This document shows, piece after piece, positions 31,631 to 42,638 of a stretch of DNA of 54,015 bases (position 1 is its first letter; each line of letters starts with the position of its first letter). The stretch lies in the NCBI GenBank assembly GCA_001821055.1, contig MHRT01000010.1:1-54015 (forward strand). Reading direction: 5' to 3'. Under the pieces are notes generated by a model. It saw nothing but the letters and a program-made list of their open reading frames with translations, searched no databases and was not told the origin of the DNA. This DNA comes from Candidatus Taylorbacteria bacterium RIFCSPHIGHO2_12_FULL_45_16. GTDB lineage: Bacteria; Patescibacteriota; Minisyncoccia; Phycocordibacterales; PALSA-1337. The position numbers and the translations under genes are program-made.

Positions 31631-33049
31631 GTGTGGGACGATGAACGTATAGAAGCTGGAGAAGCCACCGGTATCTTAGCTTGGCACCCAGACAGGCTCG
31701 CTCGTAACTCGGTTGATGGTGGAAAGATAATCTATTTGGTTGATACAGGCATGATTACTGACTTAAAGTTTCCAACATTTTGGTTTGACGCAACTCCGCA
31801 GGGAAAATTCATGCTTTCGATTGCTTTTGGTCAGAGCAAATACTATGTGGACAATTTATCAGAAAATGTAAAGCGCGGTTTTCGTCAGAAATTGAAAAAT
31901 GGCATCTGGCCGCAGAAGGCTCCGATTGGATATCTGAATGACAAAAAGACAAAACTGATCACTATTGATCCAGAAAAAGCTCCACTCATCAAGAAAGCTT
32001 TCGAGGCTTATGCTACAGGCAACTATACCCTTTCCGGATTACGCAAGGCTATGGGTGAGCTTGGTTTAACCGGGCATAAAGGCAGAGATCTTTCCATTTC
32101 CAACTATCAGTATTTACTCAAAAATCATCTCTATTACGGACTCATATTTTTTCACAGCGAATTCTGGGAAGGTAAACATGAGCCGATTATTACGAAGAAA
32201 CTCTATGATCAAGTTCAGGAGGTCATGACGCGTAAAAGTAAACCACAACATGATGGTGGATTGAAACCATATGTATATCGTGGACTATTCAAGTGCGCCG
32301 AATGTGGCTGTTGTATTACGAACGAGACGAAGAAAGGTCATAACTATTTGCGATGTACAAAACGCAAAGGACCCTGCTCGCAGAAATATGTTCGTGAGGA
32401 AGCTATGACTACATTAATTCAAAAGGAGCTCAAGAAAGTATCACTTTCTGATGCTGTTGCGAATTGGTTAATTGCCGAGGTTGAAAAAGAAAAAGTAGAT
32501 GATAATAAATTATCGGGGATTCAAATTCAGAAAGTGAATGGTGAAATTGCTTCTGTTGATTCCAAACTTGATAAATTGATGACAGCATATCTTGAAAATG
32601 CCTTAACTTTGGAAGAATATCAACAAACCAAGAACAAACTGATTTCTGAAAAGCAGGTTTTAAAGGACAAACTCGCCTCCTTCGGTCGTGTCTCGACCAG
32701 TCGGTTCGAACCAGTCATAAATTTCTTTAACGACTGTAAACAAGCCGCTATTTTGGCAGACAGCACGGATACGACGAAAATTCGCTCATTCTTCCAAAAG
32801 GTCGGTTCGAACCCACTCGTCCGCGACCGCGCCCTCGTTTTTTCGCCCCGTGCGCCCTTTGCATTTGTGACAAAAATCCCAAAAAAATCCAGCAATGAAG
32901 CGGGCGGGGCGGAAGGGGGGTTTCAGGGGGGAATTCCGCCCCGCCCTCCACTTGTGGTTTGCGATGATGCGATTTCGGGCGATTTTGCGCTTTCTGCGAA
33001 ATTGCTGGCCGGATGGGACGCTGTGGGAACCGTTATTTTAGCGAGATAA
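31631..33049 (+). pseudogene. 5'-truncated large serine recombinase (catalytic Ser region missing)
   Basis: Matches the intact recombinase at 41022 from HPDRLARN onward (recombinase domain, zinc ribbon CAECGC...YLRC, coiled coil). It lacks the ~65-aa N terminus with the catalytic Ser. The 3' ~150 nt look like read-through. Confidence 0.7.
32902..32946. repeat. GC-rich 13-bp perfect inverted repeat at the island junction
   Basis: gggcggggcggaa (32902-32914) pairs with ttccgccccgccc (32934-32946). The loop is ggggggtttcaggggggaa. Confidence 0.7.
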
Positions 33050-33305
33050 CCTGAATCCCTTTACTATCGATGTCCTTTTTAGGCCAGAATTTCTCTAGCT
33101 CTTCGATTTTCCATTTACCTACATATCCAACCTCTTTTTCGATTTCCCGACCAGTATAACTCTTTGTTTTCGGATCCCACTCCTTTAGCACTAATGTATC
33201 TCCTTCTTCAATCTCAAAATCATTCAACCGAAGCTCAAAAGTCTTCTTGTTATCGACTATCTGCTGGAAATATTCAGGCCATACTTTCTTCTCAACTTTT
33301 TTCAT
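33033..33305 (-). CDS. ASCH/PUA-like small protein (DUF3850-like)
   Basis: 90 aa. KVWPEYFQQIVDNKKTFELRLNDFEIEEGDTLVLKEW...TGREI fits the DUF3850/ASCH pattern. Confidence 0.6.
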   Translation of the reverse strand: MKKVEKKVWPEYFQQIVDNKKTFELRLNDFEIEEGDTLVLKEWDPKTKSYTGREIEKEVGYVGKWKIEELEKFWPKKDIDSKGIQVISLK

Positions 33306-33316
33306 AGTTTATAAAT

Positions 33317-35398
33317 TTATTTACTTCCATTGTTAATTTTAACAGGAACACCTTTCTTACCATTTGCTAATTTACTATCAAAGAAATCGACAATTACAGG
33401 CTTATCGCAACTAGATCCTTTTCCAACAACAATCGCACGATACCTAGGCAAAATACTCATACTATCTAAATACTTTTGATTTATATATGCACTCATGAAG
33501 TTTTTAGATGTTTCGTCGAAAGACTGTAGAGCAATAATAGTGTGACACTGATAAAGGATCGTTTTTGTCACTAATGCTGTACGCTGAGTAATGATAAGAA
33601 ATCCAATATTATGTTTTCGACATTTTAGAACAACTTGAGATATTCTGCTCACTTTCTTTTGACCAAACCCCTGATCACCAAATGTACTCTCTGGAATAAA
33701 GTCATAGGCCTCCTCCATTGCAATACAGATTTTTTCGGCCTCATTCTTTGTTTGATAAGCTACTACCTTCTCAATAAGATTGGCCGTAATGTCACTCAAA
33801 TTTAATGTGCCTGTACTTTTGTCCTTATCGTCAGTCTGCCAATTTATGGAAATTACATTTTTCGTTGCCTTTGAAAGATCAAAAGTGTTGGAATCCTGCT
33901 CTTCTATAAGTGAAGAATCTATATATGTAGTAAGTGATTGCTTATGTTTCCTATCAACTTCCAGGATTACCACTTTGAAACAACTAGAAGCCATTTTTTC
34001 TAGGATACATGCTGCCATTCTAGATTTTCCCGTACCAGTCTTTCCTATTACGGCTATGTGATGGCTGACACTTTCCTCAAGGTCAATAAAAATCGGGTAC
34101 TGCGAACGTGGTACTGTCCCAACTTTGTAACAATTATTATTAGATATTTTTATCTCTTCTGTAGATGTTTCAATAAACACGGGAGAATTTATGCTAGGCA
34201 CCCAACCAGTATCGGTGAATTTCTGTTTATCACTCTGCCAATTACCGATTTGTTGTGCAGTTATGATCTTTGATCCAATCTTGCTATGTCCATCTACACT
34301 TTCTGAATCAGTCTCAACATTAATTATTTGATATTTCGTAGAAGTCTTGTAAAAACTTACGGCAATTAAATCACCTTCCTTCAGGTCCTTGCGTTCATCA
34401 ACCCCTTCAATCATTTTAACTTTGATAACATCAATATCTGAATTGGTATAAACAAAGCCTATTATATTATCACGATTTTTATAGACCTCTGAAGATTCAA
34501 TTTCTTTAGGTATACCTGAATCTGTACTAAAGACATATACCTGCTTTGCTATGTCAATAGCCCTAGCATTTATGCAATGAAAATGTAAATATTTCTTATT
34601 ATCCGCTTCAAGTTCATATATGAACATTGCGTAAATTAAATCAGCATCTGTGTGTAGATGTCTCACGTCATCAATGACTACAATATCCCCGGATTTTAAG
34701 ACTGGAGATCCTGGTAATTGCTCAACATAAATAACATCTGGGTTTAATCTCTTTACAATTTTACCAATCAATCTCGACTTATTTTTAGCCTTCATTTTTT
34801 CAAGCAATGGAGTAATCAGTTTTCTATCAATAGGCTCAATGAGAATCACCACACCCCAAAAAATAATGAGCAATATAACTGCTATTTGCTCATTATTTAT
34901 CAATGAACTGCTTTCAAGGGATGAGACAAAATAGTTAAAAATTGACAATATAAAAACAATTGAAAACAAAAGTCTTGAACTACCCAAAAAGCCAGATATA
35001 ACATTTAAGGAATAAGCAATTTTTTGTGATAGAACATTTCTGTCTTTCTCTTCGTCAACCAAGACAAAAGACACAAGGGCTATAACAGCCGTTAGTAGTG
35101 AATATGTAATGAGTGGCCAATAGAGGTGAAATTTACTTACATCGTTAAGTGTTAATAAGACGACAAACAGTGTTATTACATTCACTATTACATCTAGTGG
35201 TTTAGTGAAATATTTTTCTGTAACAAAGACACCAAGTATTATCAATAACAAGCCACTTGTGAACCAAATCTCTGAGTCCTTTCCTAGGCCTGTAAAGATC
35301 CTATCTATCAATAAAAATTTGAGAGCAAATAATCCTCCTGCAAATATGATCAAATAAGTGAGATTTTTTAATTTATTGCTCTTCATAAAATTATCCAA
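33317..35398 (-). CDS. Membrane-anchored HerA/FtsK-superfamily (DUF87-like) ATPase
   Basis: About 6 TM segments in the first ~200 aa, then a central domain. Walker A HHIAVIGKTGTGKS, Walker B CIAMEEAYDF, and IGFLIITQRTALVTKTILYQCHTIIALQ. Confidence 0.7.
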   Translation of the reverse strand: MDNFMKSNKLKNLTYLIIFAGGLFALKFLLIDRIFTGLGKDSEIWFTSGLLLIILGVFVTEKYFTKPLDVIVNVITLFVVLLTLNDVSKFHLYWPLITYSLLTAVIALVSFVLVDEEKDRNVLSQKIAYSLNVISGFLGSSRLLFSIVFILSIFNYFVSSLESSSLINNEQIAVILLIIFWGVVILIEPIDRKLITPLLEKMKAKNKSRLIGKIVKRLNPDVIYVEQLPGSPVLKSGDIVVIDDVRHLHTDADLIYAMFIYELEADNKKYLHFHCINARAIDIAKQVYVFSTDSGIPKEIESSEVYKNRDNIIGFVYTNSDIDVIKVKMIEGVDERKDLKEGDLIAVSFYKTSTKYQIINVETDSESVDGHSKIGSKIITAQQIGNWQSDKQKFTDTGWVPSINSPVFIETSTEEIKISNNNCYKVGTVPRSQYPIFIDLEESVSHHIAVIGKTGTGKSRMAACILEKMASSCFKVVILEVDRKHKQSLTTYIDSSLIEEQDSNTFDLSKATKNVISINWQTDDKDKSTGTLNLSDITANLIEKVVAYQTKNEAEKICIAMEEAYDFIPESTFGDQGFGQKKVSRISQVVLKCRKHNIGFLIITQRTALVTKTILYQCHTIIALQSFDETSKNFMSAYINQKYLDSMSILPRYRAIVVGKGSSCDKPVIVDFFDSKLANGKKGVPVKINNGSK

Positions 35399-36065
35399 TC
35401 TTTCTCATTATAAAGAGGTATTTGAATCCTCTTAGATAGAAATTATATTGTCTAGCCCTGCTATGCCAAATATCAGTGTTTGAGGTTTGATTATGTCTTG
35501 TAAGACACACAATATCAATAGGCTCAAAGTGTTTCTCAAGTCTTTGCCACATTAGAAATCCTGTAGCTGTAAACTTCTTTTTTATCCATTGATCGGCAAT
35601 AACCCAACCCATCGCCTTTCCTGGCTTTAGGATTCTCTTAATCTCTGCAGCAGTCTTATCTAATTCATCATAAAACTCTGTTTTCTCGCAGGAGATTTTT
35701 CCGATACACTGTTTATCATCGGAATATTTTATATTGTCTGAATATGGTGAGTCGATAAACACAAAATCTACACTATTCTCCTGCAGAGGAATTTTCCTAG
35801 AATCATTCTTAATGATATCTGGTCTAACTATATTCAAATCGTAGCCAATAACTTTTCTTTTCAATTCTTTGGCCACATCAATCGTGGTGCCACTTCCACA
35901 CATTGGATCTACAACTAGATCGCCCTCTTTGGTGTATCGTTGCAACAAATTCCATATGACAAAAGCCGGCGTAACGCCGTTATATTTGTTATTTCCGTGG
36001 GGTGTATCTCCATAATTTTGTTTTGGAAAATCCCACAATGTTGTGGATTCAATCTGTGATAACAT
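35391..36065 (-). CDS. N4/N6-type DNA methyltransferase (small)
   Basis: AdoMet motif DLVVDPMCGSGTT is followed by the catalytic-type motif FIDSPY. Its stop overlaps the HerA-like start by 8 nt. Confidence 0.75.
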   Translation of the reverse strand: MLSQIESTTLWDFPKQNYGDTPHGNNKYNGVTPAFVIWNLLQRYTKEGDLVVDPMCGSGTTIDVAKELKRKVIGYDLNIVRPDIIKNDSRKIPLQENSVDFVFIDSPYSDNIKYSDDKQCIGKISCEKTEFYDELDKTAAEIKRILKPGKAMGWVIADQWIKKKFTATGFLMWQRLEKHFEPIDIVCLTRHNQTSNTDIWHSRARQYNFYLRGFKYLFIMRKIG

Positions 36066-36068
36066 AAC

Positions 36069-36737
36069 TTATTTTAGTAATTTCTTCAGATCGTCAATGA
36101 ACTTATCGAACATTTTAACCTTATCACTTTCCTCAATATTGGTTTCACTCAAAACATAACTGCCATCTGTATCAACTTCAACGATAGCTCTGCCTTTCTT
36201 TGTCGGCTTCTTCATTGTAAGTGTCCCATCTTCGTCTGGTGTTACGAAATATACCTTGATATGCTTTGTTGCTTTATCAGATGCCAATTTCATTTTCCAG
36301 TAACCTGTTTGAGCAATCCTCTCTCGTAGAGTGACTTTACTGGATAAAACAGCAACAACTTTACTCGTCTTTGGATCGAATATAATCAGGTCAACATCTG
36401 GTAAATGCAAGCCAAACTCACCATAATCAACAGTAAGATTTCTTTTAAGTTCGCTTAATTCTTTGGACAAATTTGAGCCATTTGTTCGTTCAAGAGTATT
36501 TCCATTTACTACCTGCAAACTAAGAGCGTGAACTTCATCTGTAATAATGTACTCAATCAATTTTTCCAGATTCTTTCCCTTGAATGCTCGCCAAGATTGC
36601 TCATGGTCATCACCTGTAAAATCTTTCCCGTGTTGTTCTTTGGCCTCGCGCAAAACATTCGATATGTGCCGATACGCCTCTACTCCATATTGGCTCTTTT
36701 TCGTATCATAAATTTTGATCAGATCCTTGATTGTCAT
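36069..36737 (-). CDS. Probable type II restriction endonuclease (PD-(D/E)XK-like)
   Basis: LPDVDLIIFD ... AVLSSKVTLRERIAQ resembles a PD...(S/E)xK core. It sits between two methyltransferases with 3- and 4-nt gaps. Confidence 0.5.
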   Translation of the reverse strand: MTIKDLIKIYDTKKSQYGVEAYRHISNVLREAKEQHGKDFTGDDHEQSWRAFKGKNLEKLIEYIITDEVHALSLQVVNGNTLERTNGSNLSKELSELKRNLTVDYGEFGLHLPDVDLIIFDPKTSKVVAVLSSKVTLRERIAQTGYWKMKLASDKATKHIKVYFVTPDEDGTLTMKKPTKKGRAIVEVDTDGSYVLSETNIEESDKVKMFDKFIDDLKKLLK

Positions 36738-36741
36738 TGTT

Positions 36742-38013
36742 TTATTTTTCCATTACTAGTATATATTCGGTTGGATAAGCCGAAACTTTATTCTTATCAG
36801 TTATGCTTGCAAACTTACCTGTCTTTTTATCTCTAACAGATGGCAAATTCTTTGACGGTATTTCTCTTTTTATAATATCGGCAACTTTTAGTCCTAGGTT
36901 TTGTAATTGTTCAACAAAAACTTCTGCATTGAGTATTTTTACACCCTGCAAACTGGTATTCCCGACAACAATACACGTTTTCCCTCCTTTTTTCAACATT
37001 CGTTTCATTTCAGTAAATACCTGATTCATCTCACTGAAATATGTTGAAACTTCCTCCGCCGTCTTTCGATCTATAACCAATAATTCTTTTCTAATATTCT
37101 CTGCAATTGAGCTATTCAATGTCAGATTTTTCTTGCTGTGATATGAGGTGCCAATAAATCGCTTTCGAAAATCACTTATATCCTTCGTATATTCTAACCA
37201 CAAGGCAGTCAACTGATGTAAATCAGCATATTCGTACGAAGTTACATATGGCGGCGAAGTAACAATCAAATTTACACTGTTATCCCTTGTTGGAATCGTC
37301 CTTGCGTCAGTACAGACAACTTTACTTGGCACCTTCAGATATTTCCTTTCAGATAACATTTCAAACAATCTCTCATTGCCGCGCAACATCATCTTTATTT
37401 GCTTCAAAAATGTTTTAACCGGATCTGATGGCTTTTTCTCAAAATCTCTCGTTGGTTTATTACTTTTTTGTAGCCATATCGAACAATTTTTCAATATATT
37501 AGAAAATCCGCAGAAGAAAAAATCTTGAACATCTTGATCTTTAATTCTTGAGATTTCAGCAAATATAAACGCTAACTTTCTCTTTTCTTCGGGCTTAAAC
37601 CAGTAGTCAATTCTCTCATGTTCCGGAGCTTTTACTTTTGTCTTTTCATTATAAGCCTCTAATCTAATTTTGATATTTTCAAACTCTTTTTCAATCTTTG
37701 CTGGATTGATCGGGGTAATCTTGGCTTTCGTTATTAAAACGGCAACAGGGTTGATATCAACCGCAACTGATGATCTTCCCATAACCTTAGATTCGACGAG
37801 GGTCGTACCACAACCACCAAAAGGGTCAACAACCAAATCTCCCAATTTTGTATATCTTTCTACCAGACGAGAAACAACTTGTGGAATAAACTTTGCGGGA
37901 TAACGATGATAGCCATGAGTAATATACGCAGTGTCTTTGCGTGTCTTATCAGAGAAAGACCATGACGGATCAATCTTAGTTTTATCAAAATGTGAAGTAA
38001 TATTATTGGTCAT
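36742..38013 (-). CDS. N4/N6-type DNA methyltransferase (SPPY motif)
   Basis: HRYPAKFIP...DLVVDPFGGCGTT...DINP, then about 190 aa later NLIVTSPPY. Confidence 0.8.
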   Translation of the reverse strand: MTNNITSHFDKTKIDPSWSFSDKTRKDTAYITHGYHRYPAKFIPQVVSRLVERYTKLGDLVVDPFGGCGTTLVESKVMGRSSVAVDINPVAVLITKAKITPINPAKIEKEFENIKIRLEAYNEKTKVKAPEHERIDYWFKPEEKRKLAFIFAEISRIKDQDVQDFFFCGFSNILKNCSIWLQKSNKPTRDFEKKPSDPVKTFLKQIKMMLRGNERLFEMLSERKYLKVPSKVVCTDARTIPTRDNSVNLIVTSPPYVTSYEYADLHQLTALWLEYTKDISDFRKRFIGTSYHSKKNLTLNSSIAENIRKELLVIDRKTAEEVSTYFSEMNQVFTEMKRMLKKGGKTCIVVGNTSLQGVKILNAEVFVEQLQNLGLKVADIIKREIPSKNLPSVRDKKTGKFASITDKNKVSAYPTEYILVMEK

Positions 38014-38022
38014 CGTGTTTCG

Positions 38023-38031
38023 ATTATATCA
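38023..38031 (-). promoter_or_regulatory. Candidate extended -10 (TGATATAAT) for the RM operon
   Basis: The reverse complement of 38023-38031 reads tgatataat and ends 9 nt before the MTase ATG, which implies a very short leader. Confidence 0.35.
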
Positions 38032-38056
38032 TTTCTTTAGCAAACAAGGGTAATCC

Positions 38057-38062
38057 TATAAT
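38057..38062 (+). promoter_or_regulatory. Candidate -10 box (TATAAT) facing the structured element
   Basis: Perfect tataat 19 nt upstream of the first helix strand at 38082. No convincing -35 box. Confidence 0.3.
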
Positions 38063-38081
38063 TTTCGCCACAGATATTATT

Positions 38082-38388
38082 CGCCTCCCGTTCTACCGAC
38101 TTTGGAGGGTAGGTGGTGTGCGAGACGCTTGGCAGATAAGGGCGCGTTGACCTCCGCCCGTCACCACAGAATCTATTCGCGACTAACCCGCACCGGTATG
38201 TCGAGAGCGGCCGACTGTCTGTGCGTTACAGACTGTCGGGTAAGCGGAGACATACGGGTGTGGGTGTAAGTCGCGCCACATACTCCATTAGGGCGGAGGT
38301 GTATGCGCCCGTACGCTCTCCTACCATGCGCTCAAGTACAAGCGGCCGCGCACGACCTGCCCGTAAAAGGCGGTTGGAGCGGGAGGCG
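38082..38388 (+). ncRNA. Unclassified ~307-nt GC-rich nested-helix element (candidate structured RNA, or single-strand origin of the RCR element)
   Basis: Hand-folded. A closing helix at 38082-38090/38380-38388 encloses a series of nested long-range helices (listed in the findings). G-U pairs occur only in the plus sense. No ORF. Confidence 0.55.
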
Positions 38389-38392
38389 CCTC

Positions 38393-39466
38393 TTACCACT
38401 TTTTACGCTTTATCTTTACCTTCCCCACTGCCGGAAGCAATTGAGTGGCGAATTGCGCGATAGGATCAGTATTCATAAAATCAAGCACCTGTAGTGTGGC
38501 GGCCTGAATGTCTTCAGGGCTACCTTTCATAGCATTGATTACGCCTCTAAGGATTTCAAATAGTTTAGACAATGAATCGACATCCAGCCAGTTCATAACT
38601 TCCTGGAAATTTGATCCTTTAAAAGCTCTTACGGCTTCACTGATTTCAAGCTCGGTAATCTCATCATATCCATTTGAAATAATCACTCCCTGCTCTTTTA
38701 GATTGTTCAGATAATTCGGAAACCTTCTATCAAAATACTTCATGATGTACCAGCCCCATCGCTCAAATTCTATTTTCAAGATTTTGCCATCATTTGATAT
38801 GTAAATTTTCTTCGAAATAAGTGCCAATCCTCTTCCAAGATATTTGGCATAATTCGGATCTGACAGTGTTTTCAGATAACTCAAGAGTACAGCGAACAAA
38901 TGTTGTGGCAAAATCTCTTTCTGCTTGGCGAGAAACGCATCTTCAAACGTTTTTATATCCTCTTTTGAAATCTTACCTCCACCTTTGAATTTACCAGTTT
39001 CATAATATTCATCCTCGGCTTTAACAGACTTTATATTCTTCAAGTCCTCAGCCATAGCTCGTATCGTTGTGTCCAAAACTTCCTGCTTCCCCTCGATATC
39101 TGGATCAGTAAGTAGATCAATAAGATATTTCCTCATCAACTCATCGCTAATTTTGCCGGCATCTTTCTGTTCTAGTCTGAATTTCTGAACATAATAGGTA
39201 AAATTCTTCTCCAGATTTTCAGCTTTGATCTGCTTCTCGCCGATATCAGCTTTGCAATGCTCAGCACATCGGTAATAGCCATCTGACAGCTCCAATCCAT
39301 GCCCTGATTTCTCATACACAAGACTGCCTTTCTTGAAGAATGGTAGGGGTTCAATTTTAATCGGGTTGTTAATAGTTTTCTCCTTCATTTTGATGAAAAA
39401 TCCGCACACAAAATCCTTTATTTGAGCCATCCGCGATCTATGCCTGACTGATTCCGCGAAACTCAC
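38393..39466 (-). CDS. Hypothetical protein (orphan)
   Basis: 357-aa helical, charged protein. Only a weak local resemblance (GYYRCAEHCK...) to the zinc-ribbon region of the neighbouring recombinases. The start is uncertain, with internal Met at residues 13 and 27. Confidence 0.5.
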   Translation of the reverse strand: MSFAESVRHRSRMAQIKDFVCGFFIKMKEKTINNPIKIEPLPFFKKGSLVYEKSGHGLELSDGYYRCAEHCKADIGEKQIKAENLEKNFTYYVQKFRLEQKDAGKISDELMRKYLIDLLTDPDIEGKQEVLDTTIRAMAEDLKNIKSVKAEDEYYETGKFKGGGKISKEDIKTFEDAFLAKQKEILPQHLFAVLLSYLKTLSDPNYAKYLGRGLALISKKIYISNDGKILKIEFERWGWYIMKYFDRRFPNYLNNLKEQGVIISNGYDEITELEISEAVRAFKGSNFQEVMNWLDVDSLSKLFEILRGVINAMKGSPEDIQAATLQVLDFMNTDPIAQFATQLLPAVGKVKIKRKKW

Positions 39467-39714: not shown

Positions 39715-40500
39715 ATGGGATACAACAAATTTATCAAATCCGGTAACACATTAGAAATATACTCATATGAACGATCTATCCAAATTCGTGAAGGACAACG
39801 CAGGGGTCATAAAGGCAGAAATGGTCTGTCGGGTGTGGCTTCTGGTGGAAGCAATTCACTATCACCCCAAGAATTCGAAGGAAAGCGCAAAGATAACGCG
39901 TCCCGCGCATCTATGGCTTTTAGACGGCTTATCCTATCTAACCTTGGAGGATCTGAATTACCTATACTCGTTACTTGTACATACAAAGAGAACCAAATTG
40001 ACATCAAGCAAGGATACGCGGATTTCACAGCTTTTGTCCAAGCTCTCCGCTATAAATACGGACCACTTTTCCGGTACATCGCAGTACCAGAATTTCAAAA
40101 GCGTGGAGCCGTTCATTTCCACGCTCTGTTCTGGGGGTTACCCGAAACCACGGCTGAAACAGAGAGACATACCAGATTGGTTGCGGGGATGTGGGGACAT
40201 GGATTCGTCTATGTCAAAATGACAGATGGTAATGAAAAGCTCTCGTCATACCTCGCAAAATACATGGCTAAATCATTCATAGATTATCGTTTGAAAAATC
40301 AGAAAGCTTACACCTGCTCACGCAACCTTTTAAGACCGCAGATTGTCGGCGGCATGAATAACTTTACTCTCGATGTAATTGCTCAAGAGCTTGGAGCAAC
40401 CGGAGAGCCTACTGTAGACAAAACTTATGACACACATTGGCTCGGCAAGGCACGGTATCGTGTTTATAATCTCGATGAAGATGACAAAAATTTGTCTTAA
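39715..40500 (+). CDS. Rolling-circle replication initiator (HUH endonuclease, two-tyrosine type)
   Basis: HUH motif AVHFHALFWG and Y-x-x-x-Y motif SSYLAKYMAK, in the order expected for superfamily I (phiX174 gpA/pC194-like) Reps. Confidence 0.75.
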   Translation: MGYNKFIKSGNTLEIYSYERSIQIREGQRRGHKGRNGLSGVASGGSNSLSPQEFEGKRKDNASRASMAFRRLILSNLGGSELPILVTCTYKENQIDIKQGYADFTAFVQALRYKYGPLFRYIAVPEFQKRGAVHFHALFWGLPETTAETERHTRLVAGMWGHGFVYVKMTDGNEKLSSYLAKYMAKSFIDYRLKNQKAYTCSRNLLRPQIVGGMNNFTLDVIAQELGATGEPTVDKTYDTHWLGKARYRVYNLDEDDKNLS

Positions 40501-41021: not shown

Positions 41022-42638
41022 ATGAAATATATTCTCTACTGTCGAAAATCCACTGATACCGAAGATCGCCAAGTCCTTTCTCTTGATTCCCAAGAAAAAG
41101 AGCTTTTGGCTATCGCTGAAAAGCTGAATCTGAAGATCGTAAAGGTATTCAAGGAAAGCCGGACAGCCAAAGAAGCAGGTCGTCCCATTTTCAATGAAGT
41201 TATCCAAATGATCAACGCCGGCAAAGCTGATGCTATTCTCTGTTGGAAACTGGATCGTCTGGCTCGTAATTTTATTGACGGCGGTTTAGTCATGGACATG
41301 CTTCAAAAAGGCACAATCAAAGAAATACACACTTACGAGGCTATACATTTACCTAACGAGACTTCATTCATCCTAGCCATGCAATTCGGTATGGCCAACC
41401 AATACAGCCGAGATCTAAGCGTCAATGTGAAGCGTGGTAATCGCGAGAAGCTAGCTCGTGGTGAATGGCCAAATCATGCACCATTTGGATATTTGAATGA
41501 CAAACCCACAAAGACGATCACTATTGACCCTATTCGCTCGAAGTATGTCGTGCGTGCCTTTCAACTCTACGCTACTGGTCGCTATGGCTTCAATGAGATT
41601 GCCAAAATCCTTTACGAGGAAGGCCTACGAACATCATCCGGTAAGAAAGTATATCGCGGACACATTCATCGCTTCATCAGCCAACCATTTTACTGTGGCC
41701 TCATGCTTCGTGAGGGTAAATACTATCCGGGCAAGCATCAACCCTTAATTTCCAAACAATTATTCGATGACGCCCAAAAAGTTTTACATAACAGGAACCG
41801 CCCAAGACTTCAAAAGAAATTCTTTGCTCTCCGGGGATTCTTGAAATGCGAAAACTGTGGCTGTGCCTATACTGCTTCAATCAAGAAAGGCCATGATTAC
41901 TATTACTGCACAAACGGCAAAGGTCACTGTGAGGCTCATTTGAAATATATGCGTGAAGCCAAGATATACGAATTGATCGCTCCAGTCCTCGATAAGATCA
42001 AATTCGATGAAGAAATTATTGACATCATGTACAACGCCGCCAAAGAGCGTCAACTTCACGACAACAGCTATGTAGAATCGATCGTAACTTCATGCCAAAG
42101 CCGTCTAGAATCGCTCAAGGCAAAAGAAACTCGCCTACTCGATACATTTCTCGATGGACAAATCTCAAAGGAAATCTACGACGCTAAAGTCCTTGAAATA
42201 CATAACGAAAAGATCTGCGCTGAAAAACAAATGAGCGAAGCCAAAACCAAGAATGACATTTTAACTTTGGAACCGACCAGAGAAGCATTTCTGCTTGGAA
42301 ACAGAGCCATGAAAAATTTTGTTGACGGAAATGATGACGAAAAGCGTACCATTGCTTCAAAGATACTTTGGAACCTTTCGATGAAAGACGGAAATATCGC
42401 TCAAGTAAGCTACAGAAGTCCGTATGACATCATGGCAAAAGCACCCAAAACAGGTGATATTAATACTTTGCTGCGGGACTTGGATTCGAACCAAAATTTT
42501 CGCTTTCAGAGAGCGACGTGCTACCATTACACCATCCCGCAAGGAATTCTATTATTCAGTTGTATCCTTACAAAATACGCTATTTTAGGCGATTATTCAA
42601 GATCAGCGAAGTATATCGTCAATCATTTCTTTTGCTGA
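41022..42638 (+). CDS. Large serine recombinase (intact)
   Basis: N-terminal YCRKSTDTEDRQ catalytic-Ser region, LDRLARN, recombinase domain, zinc ribbon CENCGC...YYYC and coiled coil. The last ~55 codons are antisense to tRNA-Gln. Confidence 0.85.
   Translation: MKYILYCRKSTDTEDRQVLSLDSQEKELLAIAEKLNLKIVKVFKESRTAKEAGRPIFNEVIQMINAGKADAILCWKLDRLARNFIDGGLVMDMLQKGTIKEIHTYEAIHLPNETSFILAMQFGMANQYSRDLSVNVKRGNREKLARGEWPNHAPFGYLNDKPTKTITIDPIRSKYVVRAFQLYATGRYGFNEIAKILYEEGLRTSSGKKVYRGHIHRFISQPFYCGLMLREGKYYPGKHQPLISKQLFDDAQKVLHNRNRPRLQKKFFALRGFLKCENCGCAYTASIKKGHDYYYCTNGKGHCEAHLKYMREAKIYELIAPVLDKIKFDEEIIDIMYNAAKERQLHDNSYVESIVTSCQSRLESLKAKETRLLDTFLDGQISKEIYDAKVLEIHNEKICAEKQMSEAKTKNDILTLEPTREAFLLGNRAMKNFVDGNDDEKRTIASKILWNLSMKDGNIAQVSYRSPYDIMAKAPKTGDINTLLRDLDSNQNFRFQRATCYHYTIPQGILLFSCILTKYAILGDYSRSAKYIVNHFFC
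42471..42541 (-). tRNA. tRNA-Gln (anticodon CUG)
   Basis: 71-nt cloverleaf. Acceptor TGCGGGA/TCCCGCA (U1-A72), D arm GTGT-AATGGTA-GCAC, anticodon arm TCGCT-CTCTGAA-AGCGA, T arm TTTGG-TTCGAAT-CCAAG. Confidence 0.85.

What the first reader, a model, noticed from the sequence alone, without database searches (positions are those of the whole stretch)
33033..38013. Five translationally coupled genes: MTase-REase-MTase plus membrane-anchored HerA/FtsK-like ATPase plus ASCH reader (candidate composite defence or DNA-handling system)
On the minus strand the gene order is MTase (SPPY), 4-nt gap, PD-(D/E)XK-like nuclease, 3-nt gap, second MTase (DSPY), 8-nt overlap, a 693-aa ATPase with about 6 TM helices and a HerA/DUF87 P-loop core, 11-nt gap, and a 90-aa ASCH/DUF3850 protein. 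A candidate extended -10 box sits just upstream of the first gene. An ordinary type II RM system needs neither a membrane HerA-type translocase nor a PUA-like domain. PUA-like domains (ASCH, EVE, SRA, YTH) are generally predicted to read modified nucleic acids. HerA-type ATPases are known partners in defence systems (for example Sir2-HerA and DUF4297-HerA), but I do not recognise this membrane-anchored, RM-coupled arrangement as a described system.
Basis: partly seen in the sequence, partly recalled or inferred. Interest (0 to 1): 0.8.

Follow-up and report, generated by a model that had tools for sequence, protein, structure and literature searches.

The report
Restriction operon with swappable membrane-HerA gene
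The five genes are real, but they are three separate things: an ordinary restriction-modification module, an undescribed membrane-anchored HerA ATPase that sits in the slot where related operons carry known single-gene phage-defence proteins, and an unrelated conserved host ASCH gene that merely lies next door.

Summary
All five minus-strand ORFs, their domains and their short gaps are confirmed. They are not one conserved system.

1. MT1, a BsaWI-family REase and MT2 form a conserved type II RM module. It recurs in other Patescibacteria at about 79% DNA identity, usually behind a C-protein gene.
2. DNA homology stops at the MT2 stop codon. In the next position, related operons carry bSEFIR, the PADLOC candidate PDC-S33 (RelA/SpoT-like) or unknown genes. 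The window carries a 689-aa protein with six TM helices, a HAS barrel and a HerA core.
3. That ATPase belongs to a coherent family with no name in the resources I could search: 436 relatives among one-genome-per-species representatives, and 416 clusters at 50% identity. It has no conserved partner. An RM gene lies immediately upstream in 27% of loci, against 2.6% six or more genes away. Orthologs 74–83% identical follow type I, IIS or III RM systems. The family is absent from phage records and rare on plasmids. PADLOC v2 gives only generic HerA matches.
4. The ASCH gene is 61–91% identical across Parcubacteria. No ATPase relative lies near it in the 83 other loci examined.

Best reading: an RM operon with an exchangeable 3' accessory slot, filled here by a candidate single-gene membrane-effector defence ATPase. 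The function is inferred, not shown.

The parts
36742..38013 (-). MT1: 423-aa DNA methyltransferase. Motif I (VVDPFGGCGTT) is N-terminal and motif IV is SPPY. First gene of the RM module.
   Evidence: Pfam N6_N4_Mtase 1.3e-21. PADLOC MTase_II 1.5e-59. Conserved with the REase and MT2 in L181-L187.
36069..36737 (-). Type II restriction endonuclease of the BsaWI (CCGG-family) Pfam family. The sequence contains PD...SSK...RER.
   Evidence: Pfam RE_BsaWI 5e-33, profile positions 2-105 of 105. The same family is found in L181. phmmer finds no relative with a solved structure.
35391..36065 (-). MT2: 224-aa small DNA methyltransferase with motif IV DSPY. Last gene of the RM module.
   Evidence: Pfam N6_N4_Mtase 3.1e-22. 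Its 90%-identity cluster has 678 members. It always follows the REase in L181-L187. RM-module DNA homology ends at 35401.
33317..35386 (-). Membrane-anchored HerA-family ATPase, 689 aa from the ATG at 35386 (alternative TTG at 35398). It occupies the exchangeable 3' accessory slot.
   Evidence: DUF87 3.5e-13. All top-50 Foldseek PDB matches are HerA. DNA homology to orthologs covers this gene only, 35389..33353. The family has 436 genomic relatives.
34784..35386 (-). N-terminal membrane domain of the ATPase (about aa 1-201; six TM helices; N-in/C-in by the positive-inside rule).
   Evidence: Hydropathy analysis. AF2 helices, pLDDT 76. No match to a solved fold; best E is 0.6. W45, F46, G139, S146 and W181 are conserved in at least 90% of 76 members.
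34139..34783 (-). Beta-rich HAS-barrel-like region of the ATPase (about aa 202-416).
   Evidence: AF2 strands at residues 210-409. HerA structures align over 395-600 columns. This region plus the TM domain retrieves 416 collinear cluster representatives.
33317..34138 (-). HerA RecA-like ATPase core. Walker A is GKTGTGKS, Walker B is MEEA, and the QRT motif is present.
   Evidence: G452, G455, G457, K458, E562, E563, R594, K595, Q605 and R606 are invariant in 76 of 76 members. phmmer matches HerA chains 9c1m, 8wiv, 8xau and 4d2i.
33033..33305 (-). ASCH/DUF3850 gene (90 aa). It is adjacent and probably co-transcribed, but is not a conserved part of the cassette.
   Evidence: DUF3850 1.6e-18. Homologs are 61-91% identical across Parcubacteria. 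Contexts elsewhere lack the RM genes and the ATPase. It lies outside both homology blocks.
38023..38031 (-). Extended -10 element TGATATAAT, 9 nt upstream of the MT1 ATG. This implies a near-leaderless transcript.
   Evidence: Read from the sequence. RM-module homology to L181-L183 begins at 38031. Not listed by the -35/-10 scanner.
35442..35469 (-). Best sigma-70-like match in the region (TTGGCA-16-TATAAT, 11 of 12), inside the 3' end of MT2 and 56 nt upstream of the ATPase ATG. A possible separate promoter for the accessory gene.
   Evidence: This is a consensus match only.
38081..38410 (.). GC-rich (about 60%), roughly 310-nt imperfect palindrome that folds as a rod. It lies where related RM modules carry their HTH controller gene.
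   Evidence: GC profile. Fold z-scores are -6.4 (minus strand) and -8.9 (plus strand). No Rfam match at E<=1.

Best explanation
The locus is a mosaic of two independent units, plus one neighbouring gene.

Unit 1 is a conventional type II RM module: MT1, a BsaWI-family REase and MT2. Here it has lost the HTH controller gene found in its relatives.

Unit 2 fills an exchangeable accessory slot directly after MT2. In the window the slot holds a member of an undescribed family of membrane-anchored HerA ATPases (6 TM helices, HAS barrel, HerA core).

I propose that this ATPase is a self-contained, single-gene anti-phage module of the second-line or abortive-infection kind. In this model a cytoplasmic HerA ring hangs from the membrane by its fused N-terminal domain. 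That domain attaches to the HAS-barrel end, the end that I recall (not tested here) docks the separate effectors Sir2, DUF4297 and NurA in solved HerA complexes. DNA- or infection-dependent ATPase activity would then drive a change in the membrane domain, such as permeabilisation or ion or solute export, that stops phage growth.

Shown here: the gene structures, the domain architecture, the module boundaries, the family's extent and its enrichment next to RM genes. Inferred: the defence function, from guilt by embedding and slot equivalence. Speculative: the membrane-effector mechanism.

The ASCH gene is a conserved Parcubacteria gene that happens to lie downstream.
For: Modularity:
- Window 38031..35401 is about 79% identical to L181-L183 across the RM genes only.
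- Window 35389..33353 is 72-78% identical to L084, L085, L174, L177, L001, L180 and L002 across the ATPase only. No upstream sequence is shared.

Slot equivalence. After the same RM trio come:
- bSEFIR (PADLOC 4.8e-112);
- PDC-S33, a RelA/SpoT-like candidate (2.4e-120);
- or a 71-aa plus 350-aa pair of unknown function.

RM linkage of the ATPase family:
- HsdM/HsdS, HsdR, AlwI, type III Res, C5 and N6_N4 MTases, MmeI, Eco57I and Mrr are its recurrent neighbours.
- An RM gene is at position -1 in 20 of 73 loci, against 9 of 348 genes six or more positions away (odds ratio 14, p=1.6e-10).
- The gap from the upstream RM gene to the ATPase is -25 to +21 nt in 18 of 19 cases.
- Orthologs 74-83% identical follow type IIS, type III and type I (L002) systems.
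- In the Arcobacter plasmid the gene lies inside a type I locus between hsdS and hsdR.
- Other neighbours include AbiE, reverse transcriptases, GmrSD/HNH, an AAA_21 ATPase, PIF1, PDC-S05, PDC-S11, PDC-S15 and PDC-S23.

HerA identity:
- All top-50 Foldseek matches are HerA chains.
- The catalytic motifs are invariant in 76 of 76 members, and every member has 3-6 N-terminal TM segments.

No conserved partner gene was found.

Not a virus or plasmid function: 0 phage records, 10 of 72,556 plasmids, and 2 partial matches in 2.9 million viral contigs.

The guilt-by-embedding rationale comes from Payne et al. 2024, bioRxiv 10.1101/2024.01.29.577857.
Against: - No experiment supports the model. The defence function rests on genomic context alone.
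- About two thirds of the 80 loci show no recognisable RM gene within three genes (26 of 80, a lower bound). RM linkage is therefore frequent but not obligatory.
- The 80 loci are not phylogenetically independent, so the p-value overstates the evidence.
- The TM domain matches no solved fold, so nothing supports pore or transporter activity directly.
- The 11-nt gap and the lack of a terminator before the ASCH gene leave co-transcription possible, so some local role for ASCH cannot be excluded.
- DefenseFinder, REBASE and papers outside the held library could not be searched. The family may already have a name.
Confidence: 0.6

Rival explanations
1. RM-coupled guard, on the PrrC model. The membrane HerA works with the neighbouring RM enzyme. 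Either it is held inactive by the enzyme and fires when a phage anti-restriction protein disables restriction, or it is activated by the DNA ends that restriction produces. On this reading RM plus ATPase is a two-layer system.
For: - In L018, L026, L038, L051 and the Arcobacter plasmid L086 the gene lies inside a type I locus between hsdS and hsdR. From my recollection of the PrrC literature, prrC sits in the same place. The review read here says only that prrC is embedded within the type IC locus ecoprrI (PMC12707154).
- Spacing to the upstream RM gene is tight.
- The gene follows four different RM types.
Against: - Nearly identical ATPases (74-83%) pair with unrelated RM enzymes, which makes a specific protein-protein interface unlikely.
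- About two thirds of the loci have no detectable RM gene nearby.
- The other slot occupants I could identify are one named stand-alone system (bSEFIR) and one single-gene candidate (PDC-S33).
Confidence: 0.2
2. DNA-translocation or mobility function. The membrane-anchored FtsK-HerA-type pump moves DNA across or along the membrane for the mobile element that carries it, as in conjugative coupling proteins, TraB or Ced, or in DNA uptake by CPR bacteria. It would not act in defence.
For: - Membrane-anchored pumps of this superfamily act in conjugation and DNA import (established knowledge).
- There is a weak NCBIfam CedD match at 1e-6.
- Some homologs carry precomputed TrwB/FtsK Pfam hits.
- The block lies in an integrated element with an RCR Rep and serine recombinases.
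- The roughly 7-kb RM-ATPase contigs L084 and L085 are bounded by long inverted repeats.
Against: - All best structural matches are HerA with a HAS barrel, not VirD4, FtsK or VirB4.
- Among the neighbours I annotated there is no relaxase, T4SS or competence gene.
- The gene is on 10 of 72,556 plasmids and in no phage record.
- It is inserted inside type I RM operons.
Confidence: 0.1
3. One reading: all five genes, including the ASCH protein as a reader of modified bases, make up one defence or DNA-handling system.
For: The five genes share a strand and have gaps of at most 11 nt. The whole block has low GC. [quoted passage not shown]
Against: - No ASCH or BsaWI gene lies near any of the 80 ATPase loci.
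- None of 80 ASCH loci contains the ATPase, and one of 80 contains an MTase fragment.
- ASCH homologs 80-91% identical lie among housekeeping or unrelated genes.
- The RM trio occurs with other 3' genes and without ASCH.
- The homology blocks exclude ASCH.
Confidence: 0.04

Closest known systems
HerA-based anti-phage systems (Sir2-HerA/Nezha, DUF4297-HerA) and archaeal HerA-NurA
   Same: It shares the HerA fold (HAS barrel plus RecA-like core) and invariant Walker A and B motifs. The top structural matches are 8woc, 4d2i, 8zit and 9x1m. It occurs in defence-island contexts.
   Different: There is no separate effector gene and no conserved partner at all. A six-helix membrane domain is fused to the N-terminus instead. 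PADLOC HerA models match only part of the protein, chiefly the C-terminal part of the ATPase core, at no more than 111 bits.
PrrC and other genes embedded in type I RM loci; guilt-by-embedding candidates (Payne et al. 2024)
   Same: It recurs inside or directly after RM operons, including inside type I loci between hsdS and hsdR. It is interchangeable with the named system bSEFIR and the candidate PDC-S33.
   Different: It is not an ABC ATPase fused to an anticodon nuclease. It matches no PDC or HEC model in PADLOC v2. The paper does not mention HerA, DUF87 or membrane proteins.
Tmn (transmembrane P-loop NTPase, single-gene defence; PMC13001434)
   Same: Both are single polypeptides that combine transmembrane helices with a P-loop NTPase. 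This makes Tmn a plausible functional analogue in which the membrane domain is the effector.
   Different: Tmn belongs to the YobI family of P-loop NTPases (abstract of PMC13001434). This protein is a FtsK-HerA-type ATPase with N-terminal helices. No Tmn model appears among the PADLOC hits.
Type II RM systems of the BsaWI / CCGG family with a C-protein
   Same: The REase matches Pfam RE_BsaWI at 5e-33. MTase genes flank it. Relatives have an upstream HTH controller gene.
   Different: The window copy lacks the HTH gene and has a GC-rich palindrome in its place. Two MTases are an integral part of the module. The recognition site and the methylated base are unknown.

Membership tests
Type II restriction-modification system (BsaWI/CCGG-family REase) | The REase matches the family profile above the curated threshold | tested here: met
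   Pfam RE_BsaWI scores 113.7 bits against a cutoff of 26.2, E=5e-33.
Type II restriction-modification system (BsaWI/CCGG-family REase) | A cognate DNA methyltransferase is adjacent and co-conserved with the REase | tested here: met
   MT1-REase-MT2 recurs in L181-L187, which come from independent samples, at about 79% DNA identity for L181-L183.
Type II restriction-modification system (BsaWI/CCGG-family REase) | Sequence-specific cleavage and protective methylation | not testable with these tools
   This needs enzymology or long-read methylome data. CCGG is not depleted in the window: 210 observed against 194 expected, which is uninformative.
HerA clade of the FtsK-HerA superfamily | HerA/DUF87 ATPase core with Walker A, Walker B and the conserved arginine and sensor residues | tested here: met
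   DUF87 scores 50.6 bits against a cutoff of 23.2. G452, G455, G457, K458, E562, E563, R594, K595, Q605 and R606 are invariant in 76 of 76 members.
HerA clade of the FtsK-HerA superfamily | A HAS-barrel domain N-terminal to the ATPase core | tested here: met
   The AF2 model has a beta-rich region at 210-409. HerA chains align over 395-600 columns, E down to 2.6e-16.
HerA clade of the FtsK-HerA superfamily | Hexameric ring that translocates DNA | not testable with these tools
   No oligomer modelling or biochemistry was available.
Sir2-HerA / DUF4297-HerA / HerA-NurA two-gene systems | An adjacent effector gene (Sir2, DUF4297 or NurA) co-conserved with HerA | tested here: not met
   No neighbour cluster is shared by more than 17 of 81 loci, and the most widely shared ones (17 and 16 loci) are RM subunits. 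Sir2, DUF4297 and NurA are not among the 25 most frequent families at the flanking positions.
Type IV coupling protein / FtsK / VirB4-type conjugative ATPase | Matches to TraG/VirD4/FtsK domains, and linkage to relaxase or T4SS genes | tested here: not met
   The window protein has no such Pfam hit. TraC scores 16 bits against a cutoff of 567. All 50 best structures are HerA. The gene is on 10 of 72,556 plasmids.
Tmn (transmembrane NTPase defence) | A match to the Tmn profile | tested here: not met
   No Tmn model appears among the PADLOC hits of the window protein or of 8 other family members.
Named or candidate system in PADLOC-DB v2.0.0 | A full-length, high-scoring match to a system-specific model | tested here: not met
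   The best hit is generic HerA PDLC04105, 79-111 bits, covering only part of the protein (best stretch in the C-terminal part of the ATPase core). By contrast bSEFIR scores 374 bits and PDC-S33 scores 400 bits for the other slot occupants.
Named system in DefenseFinder or REBASE | A match to their current models or entries | not tested
ASCH/PUA-like reader as a component of an RM or defence system | Co-occurrence of the ASCH gene with RM or defence genes across homologs | tested here: not met
   No ATPase relative occurs in 80 ASCH loci, and an MTase fragment occurs in one. Three further contexts are housekeeping or unrelated genes.

The most novel reading that the evidence does not exclude
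The 6TM-HAS-barrel-HerA family is a new, widespread single-gene anti-phage system. In it the HerA motor is fused to its own membrane effector, and DNA- or infection-triggered ATPase activity gates a membrane change. More broadly, Patescibacteria RM operons would carry a defined 3' plug-in slot in which stand-alone effectors (TIR/SEFIR, RelA/SpoT-like, membrane HerA) are exchanged by recombination at ORF boundaries, giving layered immunity.
Probability: 0.35. Interest if true: 0.7.

Novelty: new variant of a known kind. Interest (0 to 1): 0.55.

Why it matters
If the membrane HerA is a defence gene, it adds a third design to HerA-based immunity. In Sir2-HerA and DUF4297-HerA the motor recruits a soluble effector; here the motor is fused to a membrane domain. 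It would also give a compact single-gene system present in many phyla, including CPR bacteria, whose immune repertoires are poorly known.

The module boundaries found here are unusually clean: the same RM trio carries bSEFIR, PDC-S33, unknown genes or this ATPase. This is a natural experiment showing how RM operons pick up second-line effectors, and it offers a simple rule for finding more. The 71-aa plus 350-aa pair in L186 and L187 is a further untested candidate.

The analysis also removes a false lead: the ASCH gene is not part of the system.

Tried and rejected
- tblastn of the five window proteins against the 80 ATPase loci found no ASCH or BsaWI match. It found one MT2-like gene (L020, 28%) and weak MTase matches in L019, L031, L047 and L058. 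The conserved five-gene system was rejected.
- Neighbour clustering, and Pfam and PADLOC scans of the flanking positions, found no conserved partner for the ATPase.
- The TM domain was modelled alone (pLDDT 76) and searched against the PDB. The best hit had E=0.6 and TM-score of at most 0.31, so it gives no functional clue.
- phmmer of the REase against solved structures found nothing.
- An Rfam scan of the GC-rich element at 37900-38500 at E<=1 found nothing.
- A search for inverted repeats bounding the window block, like those of L084 and L085, found none. The two GC-rich flanks are unrelated to each other and to the L084/L085 repeats. GC-rich flanks are not general among orthologous loci.
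- CCGG site avoidance gave no signal.
- A phage, plasmid or virus origin for the ATPase was rejected. The L084/L085 repeat motif is absent from viral contigs.
- Seven full-text literature searches and several papers turned up no description of a membrane-anchored, RM-linked HerA. Iyer et al. 2004 on the FtsK-HerA superfamily was not held.
- The GC content of the ASCH gene (0.37; GC3 0.41) does not show whether it arrived with the block.

Full report
**Observation**

| Gene | Window coordinates | Length | Main family match |
|---|---|---|---|
| MT1 | 36742-38013 | 423 aa | N6_N4_Mtase 1.3e-21; motif SPPY |
| REase | 36069-36737 | 222 aa | RE_BsaWI 5e-33, covering the whole 105-position profile |
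| MT2 | 35391-36065 | 224 aa | N6_N4_Mtase 3.1e-22; motif DSPY |
| ATPase | 33317-35398 | 693 aa (TTG) or 689 aa (ATG) | DUF87/HerA 3.5e-13, residues 425-548 |
| ASCH | 33033-33305 | 90 aa | DUF3850 1.6e-18; ASCH 4.2e-05 |

- The gaps of 4, 3 and 11 nt are correct.
- The 8-nt overlap holds only for a TTG start. Orthologs and the deposited gene calls begin at the ATG at 35386, which gives 689 aa and a 4-nt gap.
- Hydropathy and two AlphaFold models show six transmembrane helices within residues 13-190.
- The extended -10 (TGATATAAT, 38031..38023) lies 9 nt before the MT1 start.
- The block has GC 0.34-0.37 against about 0.45 around it.
- The host is a Parcubacteria/Patescibacteria bacterium. 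Its ribonucleotide reductase clusters at 90% identity or more with a Candidatus Taylorbacteria protein.
- The same genomic context has been assembled repeatedly from several samples.

**The ATPase belongs to a coherent family with no match to any named system searched**

A protein search returned 76 relatives, 72 of them essentially full length at 41-89% identity. They come from Patescibacteria, Chloroherpetonaceae, Rhodospirillaceae, Margulisbacteria and Vicinamibacterales.

A scan of one genome per species found 436 relatives. The best 80 loci span CPR groups, Bacteroidota, Ignavibacteria, Pseudomonadota, Elusimicrobia, Acidobacteria, Bdellovibrionota and Desulfosporosinus.

The family-specific N-terminal 416 residues (membrane domain plus barrel) retrieve 416 cluster representatives at 50% identity. 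Nearly all are 650-760 aa and align collinearly.

In 76 full-length members:
- the first 230 residues hold 3-6 hydrophobic segments, and there are essentially none after that;
- Walker A (G452, G455, G457, K458), Walker B (E562, E563), R594/K595 and Q605-R606 are invariant.

The full-length model (pLDDT 75) matches only HerA structures among its 50 best PDB hits. These include Sir2-HerA 8woc, Sulfolobus HerA 4d2i, DUF4297-HerA 8zit and HerA-NurA 9x1m, aligned over 395-600 columns. Sequence search against solved structures agrees.

It is therefore a true HerA with a HAS barrel. It is not an FtsK, VirD4 or VirB4 type.

The membrane domain modelled alone (pLDDT 76) matches no solved fold. The lysine-rich N-terminus and the basic stretch after helix 6 indicate an N-in/C-in topology, which puts the motor in the cytoplasm (inferred from the positive-inside rule).

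**What travels with the ATPase**

- tblastn of the five window proteins against the 80 loci found the ATPase in all of them. It found no ASCH gene and no BsaWI-type REase. There was one MT2-like gene (L020, 28%) and weak MTase matches in four further loci.
- De novo clustering of neighbours found no universal partner.
- The recurrent neighbours are RM components, confirmed with Pfam: HsdM and HsdS, HsdR, C5 and N6_N4 methyltransferases, an AlwI REase and a type III Res. Fic and PIN proteins also recur.
- Among the 51 same-strand genes directly upstream, the commonest families are Methylase_S (8), N6_Mtase (5), Eco57I (5), ResIII (4), Mrr_cat (3) and MmeI (2).
- Downstream, the commonest are HsdR (4), RhuM, PIF1, Mrr and DUF4268 (PDC-S11).
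- By a conservative local profile search, an RM gene occupies position -1 in 20 of 73 loci. In the same loci the rate six or more genes away is 9 of 348 (odds ratio 14, p=1.6e-10). The loci are not independent, so this overstates the evidence.
- The gap between the upstream RM gene and the ATPase is -25 to +21 nt in 18 of 19 cases.
- Loci without RM genes still look like defence islands. They contain an EcoRI methylase with GmrSD/HNH and an AAA_21 ATPase, Mrr, PIF1, AbiE and reverse transcriptases.
- In an Arcobacter plasmid the gene lies inside a type I locus, after hsdS and a SLATT gene and two genes before hsdR.
- The family has no match in 50,697 phage records. It matches 10 of 72,556 plasmids and gives 2 partial matches in 2.9 million viral contigs.

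**The operon is a mosaic**

The closest ATPase orthologs (74-83% identical) follow quite different RM systems:

| Locus | Upstream genes |
|---|---|
| L084 (and L001) | HTH, two Dam-type methyltransferases, AlwI-type REase |
| L085, L174, L177 | HTH, type III Mod, type III Res |
| L002 | Type I system |

Conversely, MT2's 90% cluster has 678 members. In other contigs the RM trio (MT1 at 423-433 aa, BsaWI REase, MT2), usually with an HTH gene in front, is followed by other genes:

| Locus | Gene after MT2 |
|---|---|
| L181-L183 | 482-aa SEFIR/TIR protein; PADLOC bSEFIR 4.8e-112 |
| L184, L185 | 353-aa RelA/SpoT-like protein; PADLOC PDC-S33 2.4e-120 |
| L186, L187 | 71-aa and 350-aa proteins of unknown family |

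At the DNA level:
- window 38031..35401 is about 79% identical to L181-L183 and stops 10 nt before the MT2 stop codon;
- window 35389..33353 is 72-78% identical to the ATPase genes of L084, L085, L174, L177, L001, L180 and L002.

Similarity to the orthologs starts at the ATPase start codon, with nothing shared upstream.

The window therefore joins an RM module to an accessory-slot module at ORF boundaries. In relatives, the same slot holds a named single-gene defence system (bSEFIR) or a published candidate (PDC-S33).

**The ASCH gene is a bystander**

- Its homologs are 73-91% identical among the 120 listed of 693 matches. They come from Kaiser-, Taylor-, Zambryski- and Azambacteria and from Paceibacterota. 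This conservation fits a slowly evolving host gene better than mobile defence cargo.
- Three long contexts show unrelated or housekeeping neighbours such as alanyl-tRNA synthetase, ribosomal proteins, CTP synthase and a glycosyltransferase.
- In 80 metagenomic loci carrying homologs 61-90% identical (39 of them at least 5 kb long), none contains an ATPase relative. One contains an MTase-like fragment.
- The gene lies outside both homology blocks.
- Co-transcription with the ATPase remains likely, given the 11-nt gap and no detected terminator. I found no evidence for a shared function.
[quoted passage not shown] That association does not hold for this subfamily.

**How it most likely works**

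Shown: the architecture, the catalytic competence at the level of motifs, the modularity and the enrichment next to RM genes.

Inferred, with confidence about 0.6: the ATPase is a self-contained defence gene. The argument is guilt by embedding (Payne et al. 2024) together with its interchangeability with bSEFIR and PDC-S33.

Speculative, about 0.3: the mechanism. As I recall, in solved HerA defence complexes the effector docks on the HAS-barrel face. Here the membrane domain is fused at that end. A hexamer would therefore carry a ring of 36 helices, and DNA- or infection-dependent ATPase cycling could open or drive that ring. The result would be growth arrest, comparable in outcome to Tmn, a transmembrane P-loop NTPase that exports Mg2+ (PMC13001434).

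Rivals:
- a PrrC-like guard that depends on the RM enzyme (0.2);
- a DNA-transfer or DNA-uptake pump (0.1);
- the five-gene composite (0.04).

**Comparison with known systems, and novelty**

PADLOC v2 gives only generic, partial HerA hits for the window protein and for eight diverse family members. NCBIfam has no model that reaches its cutoff. Seven full-text searches found no description of the family. DefenseFinder and REBASE could not be consulted.

I classify this as a new variant of a known kind: a HerA-based defence candidate with a fused membrane domain, sitting in an RM-embedded slot. The RM trio itself is ordinary.

**Limits**

- Nothing here is experimental.
- The neighbourhood statistics rest on 80 of the 436 loci and on simple ORF calls.
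- The RM specificity and the methylated base are unknown.

Noticed in passing
window 38081-38410: A GC-rich (about 60%) imperfect palindrome of roughly 310 nt folds into one long rod (z = -6.4 on the minus strand, -8.9 on the plus strand) and has no Rfam match. It lies where related RM modules carry their HTH controller gene, about 1.3 kb from a rolling-circle Rep gene. It could be a single-strand origin or a recombination scar. This was not tested.
   Followed up: partly
window 32781-32990: A second GC-rich segment contains the hairpin GGGCGGGGCGGAA...TTCCGCCCCGCCC, just downstream of the ASCH gene. The 3' end of the recombinase ORF reads through it, so that ORF's C-terminal tail is probably not native.
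   Followed up: partly
window 31631-33049 (+), 41022-42638 (+), 39715-40500 (+): The RM block lies between two paralogous serine recombinase genes. The first lacks about 57 N-terminal residues of the resolvase domain. A rolling-circle Rep (REP_ORF2-G2P 1.5e-20), a NUDIX gene and a 357-aa gene with no family match lie alongside. Together they look like an integrated mobile element carrying the RM operon as cargo.
   Followed up: partly
window 42470-42541 (-): A tRNA-Gln gene lies on the opposite strand, inside the last 170 nt of the 538-aa serine recombinase ORF. This may mark an integration site or an over-long ORF call.
   Followed up: no
L084 1-105 and 6841-6945; L085 1-127 and 7487-7613; tails of L001, L174, L177: Contigs of about 7 kb consisting only of HTH, RM and ATPase genes end in long GC-rich inverted repeats (96 nt at 99% identity in L084, 127 nt at 100% in L085). 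The repeats contain the hairpin GCAGGCGGGCAAAAA...TTTTTGCCCGCCTGC. No transposase lies inside. The unit may be a discrete invertible or mobile element, or a cassette flanked by a dispersed palindromic repeat. The motif is absent from viral contigs.
   Followed up: partly
window 35442-35469 (-): The best sigma-70-like match in the region (TTGGCA-16-TATAAT, 11 of 12) lies inside the 3' end of MT2, 56 nt upstream of the ATPase start. It could let the accessory gene be transcribed independently of the RM genes.
   Followed up: no
L186 3007-4279; L187 3008-4280: In the same slot after the same RM trio lie a 71-aa and a 350-aa protein. Neither has a Pfam or PADLOC match. They form an untested candidate accessory pair.
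   Followed up: partly
window 35391-36065 (MT2): MT2's 90%-identity cluster has 678 members, whereas the MT1 and REase clusters each hold only the window's own sequence. The small methyltransferase is far more conserved or more widespread than its partners.
   Followed up: partly
window 33033-33305 and L088-L173: The 90-aa DUF3850/ASCH protein is 61-91% identical across many Parcubacteria lineages, yet its neighbours differ from genome to genome. Its best PHROG match is an 'RNA-binding protein' family (2.9e-20). Its function is unknown.
   Followed up: partly
L007 7185-8477; L088 5851-8208: Other FtsK/HerA-type ATPases turn up nearby in some loci. One is a 431-aa TrwB/DUF87-like protein two genes upstream of the family member in L007. 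The other is a 926-aa DUF8128-DUF87-TraG-like protein about 5 kb from an ASCH homolog in L088.
   Followed up: no
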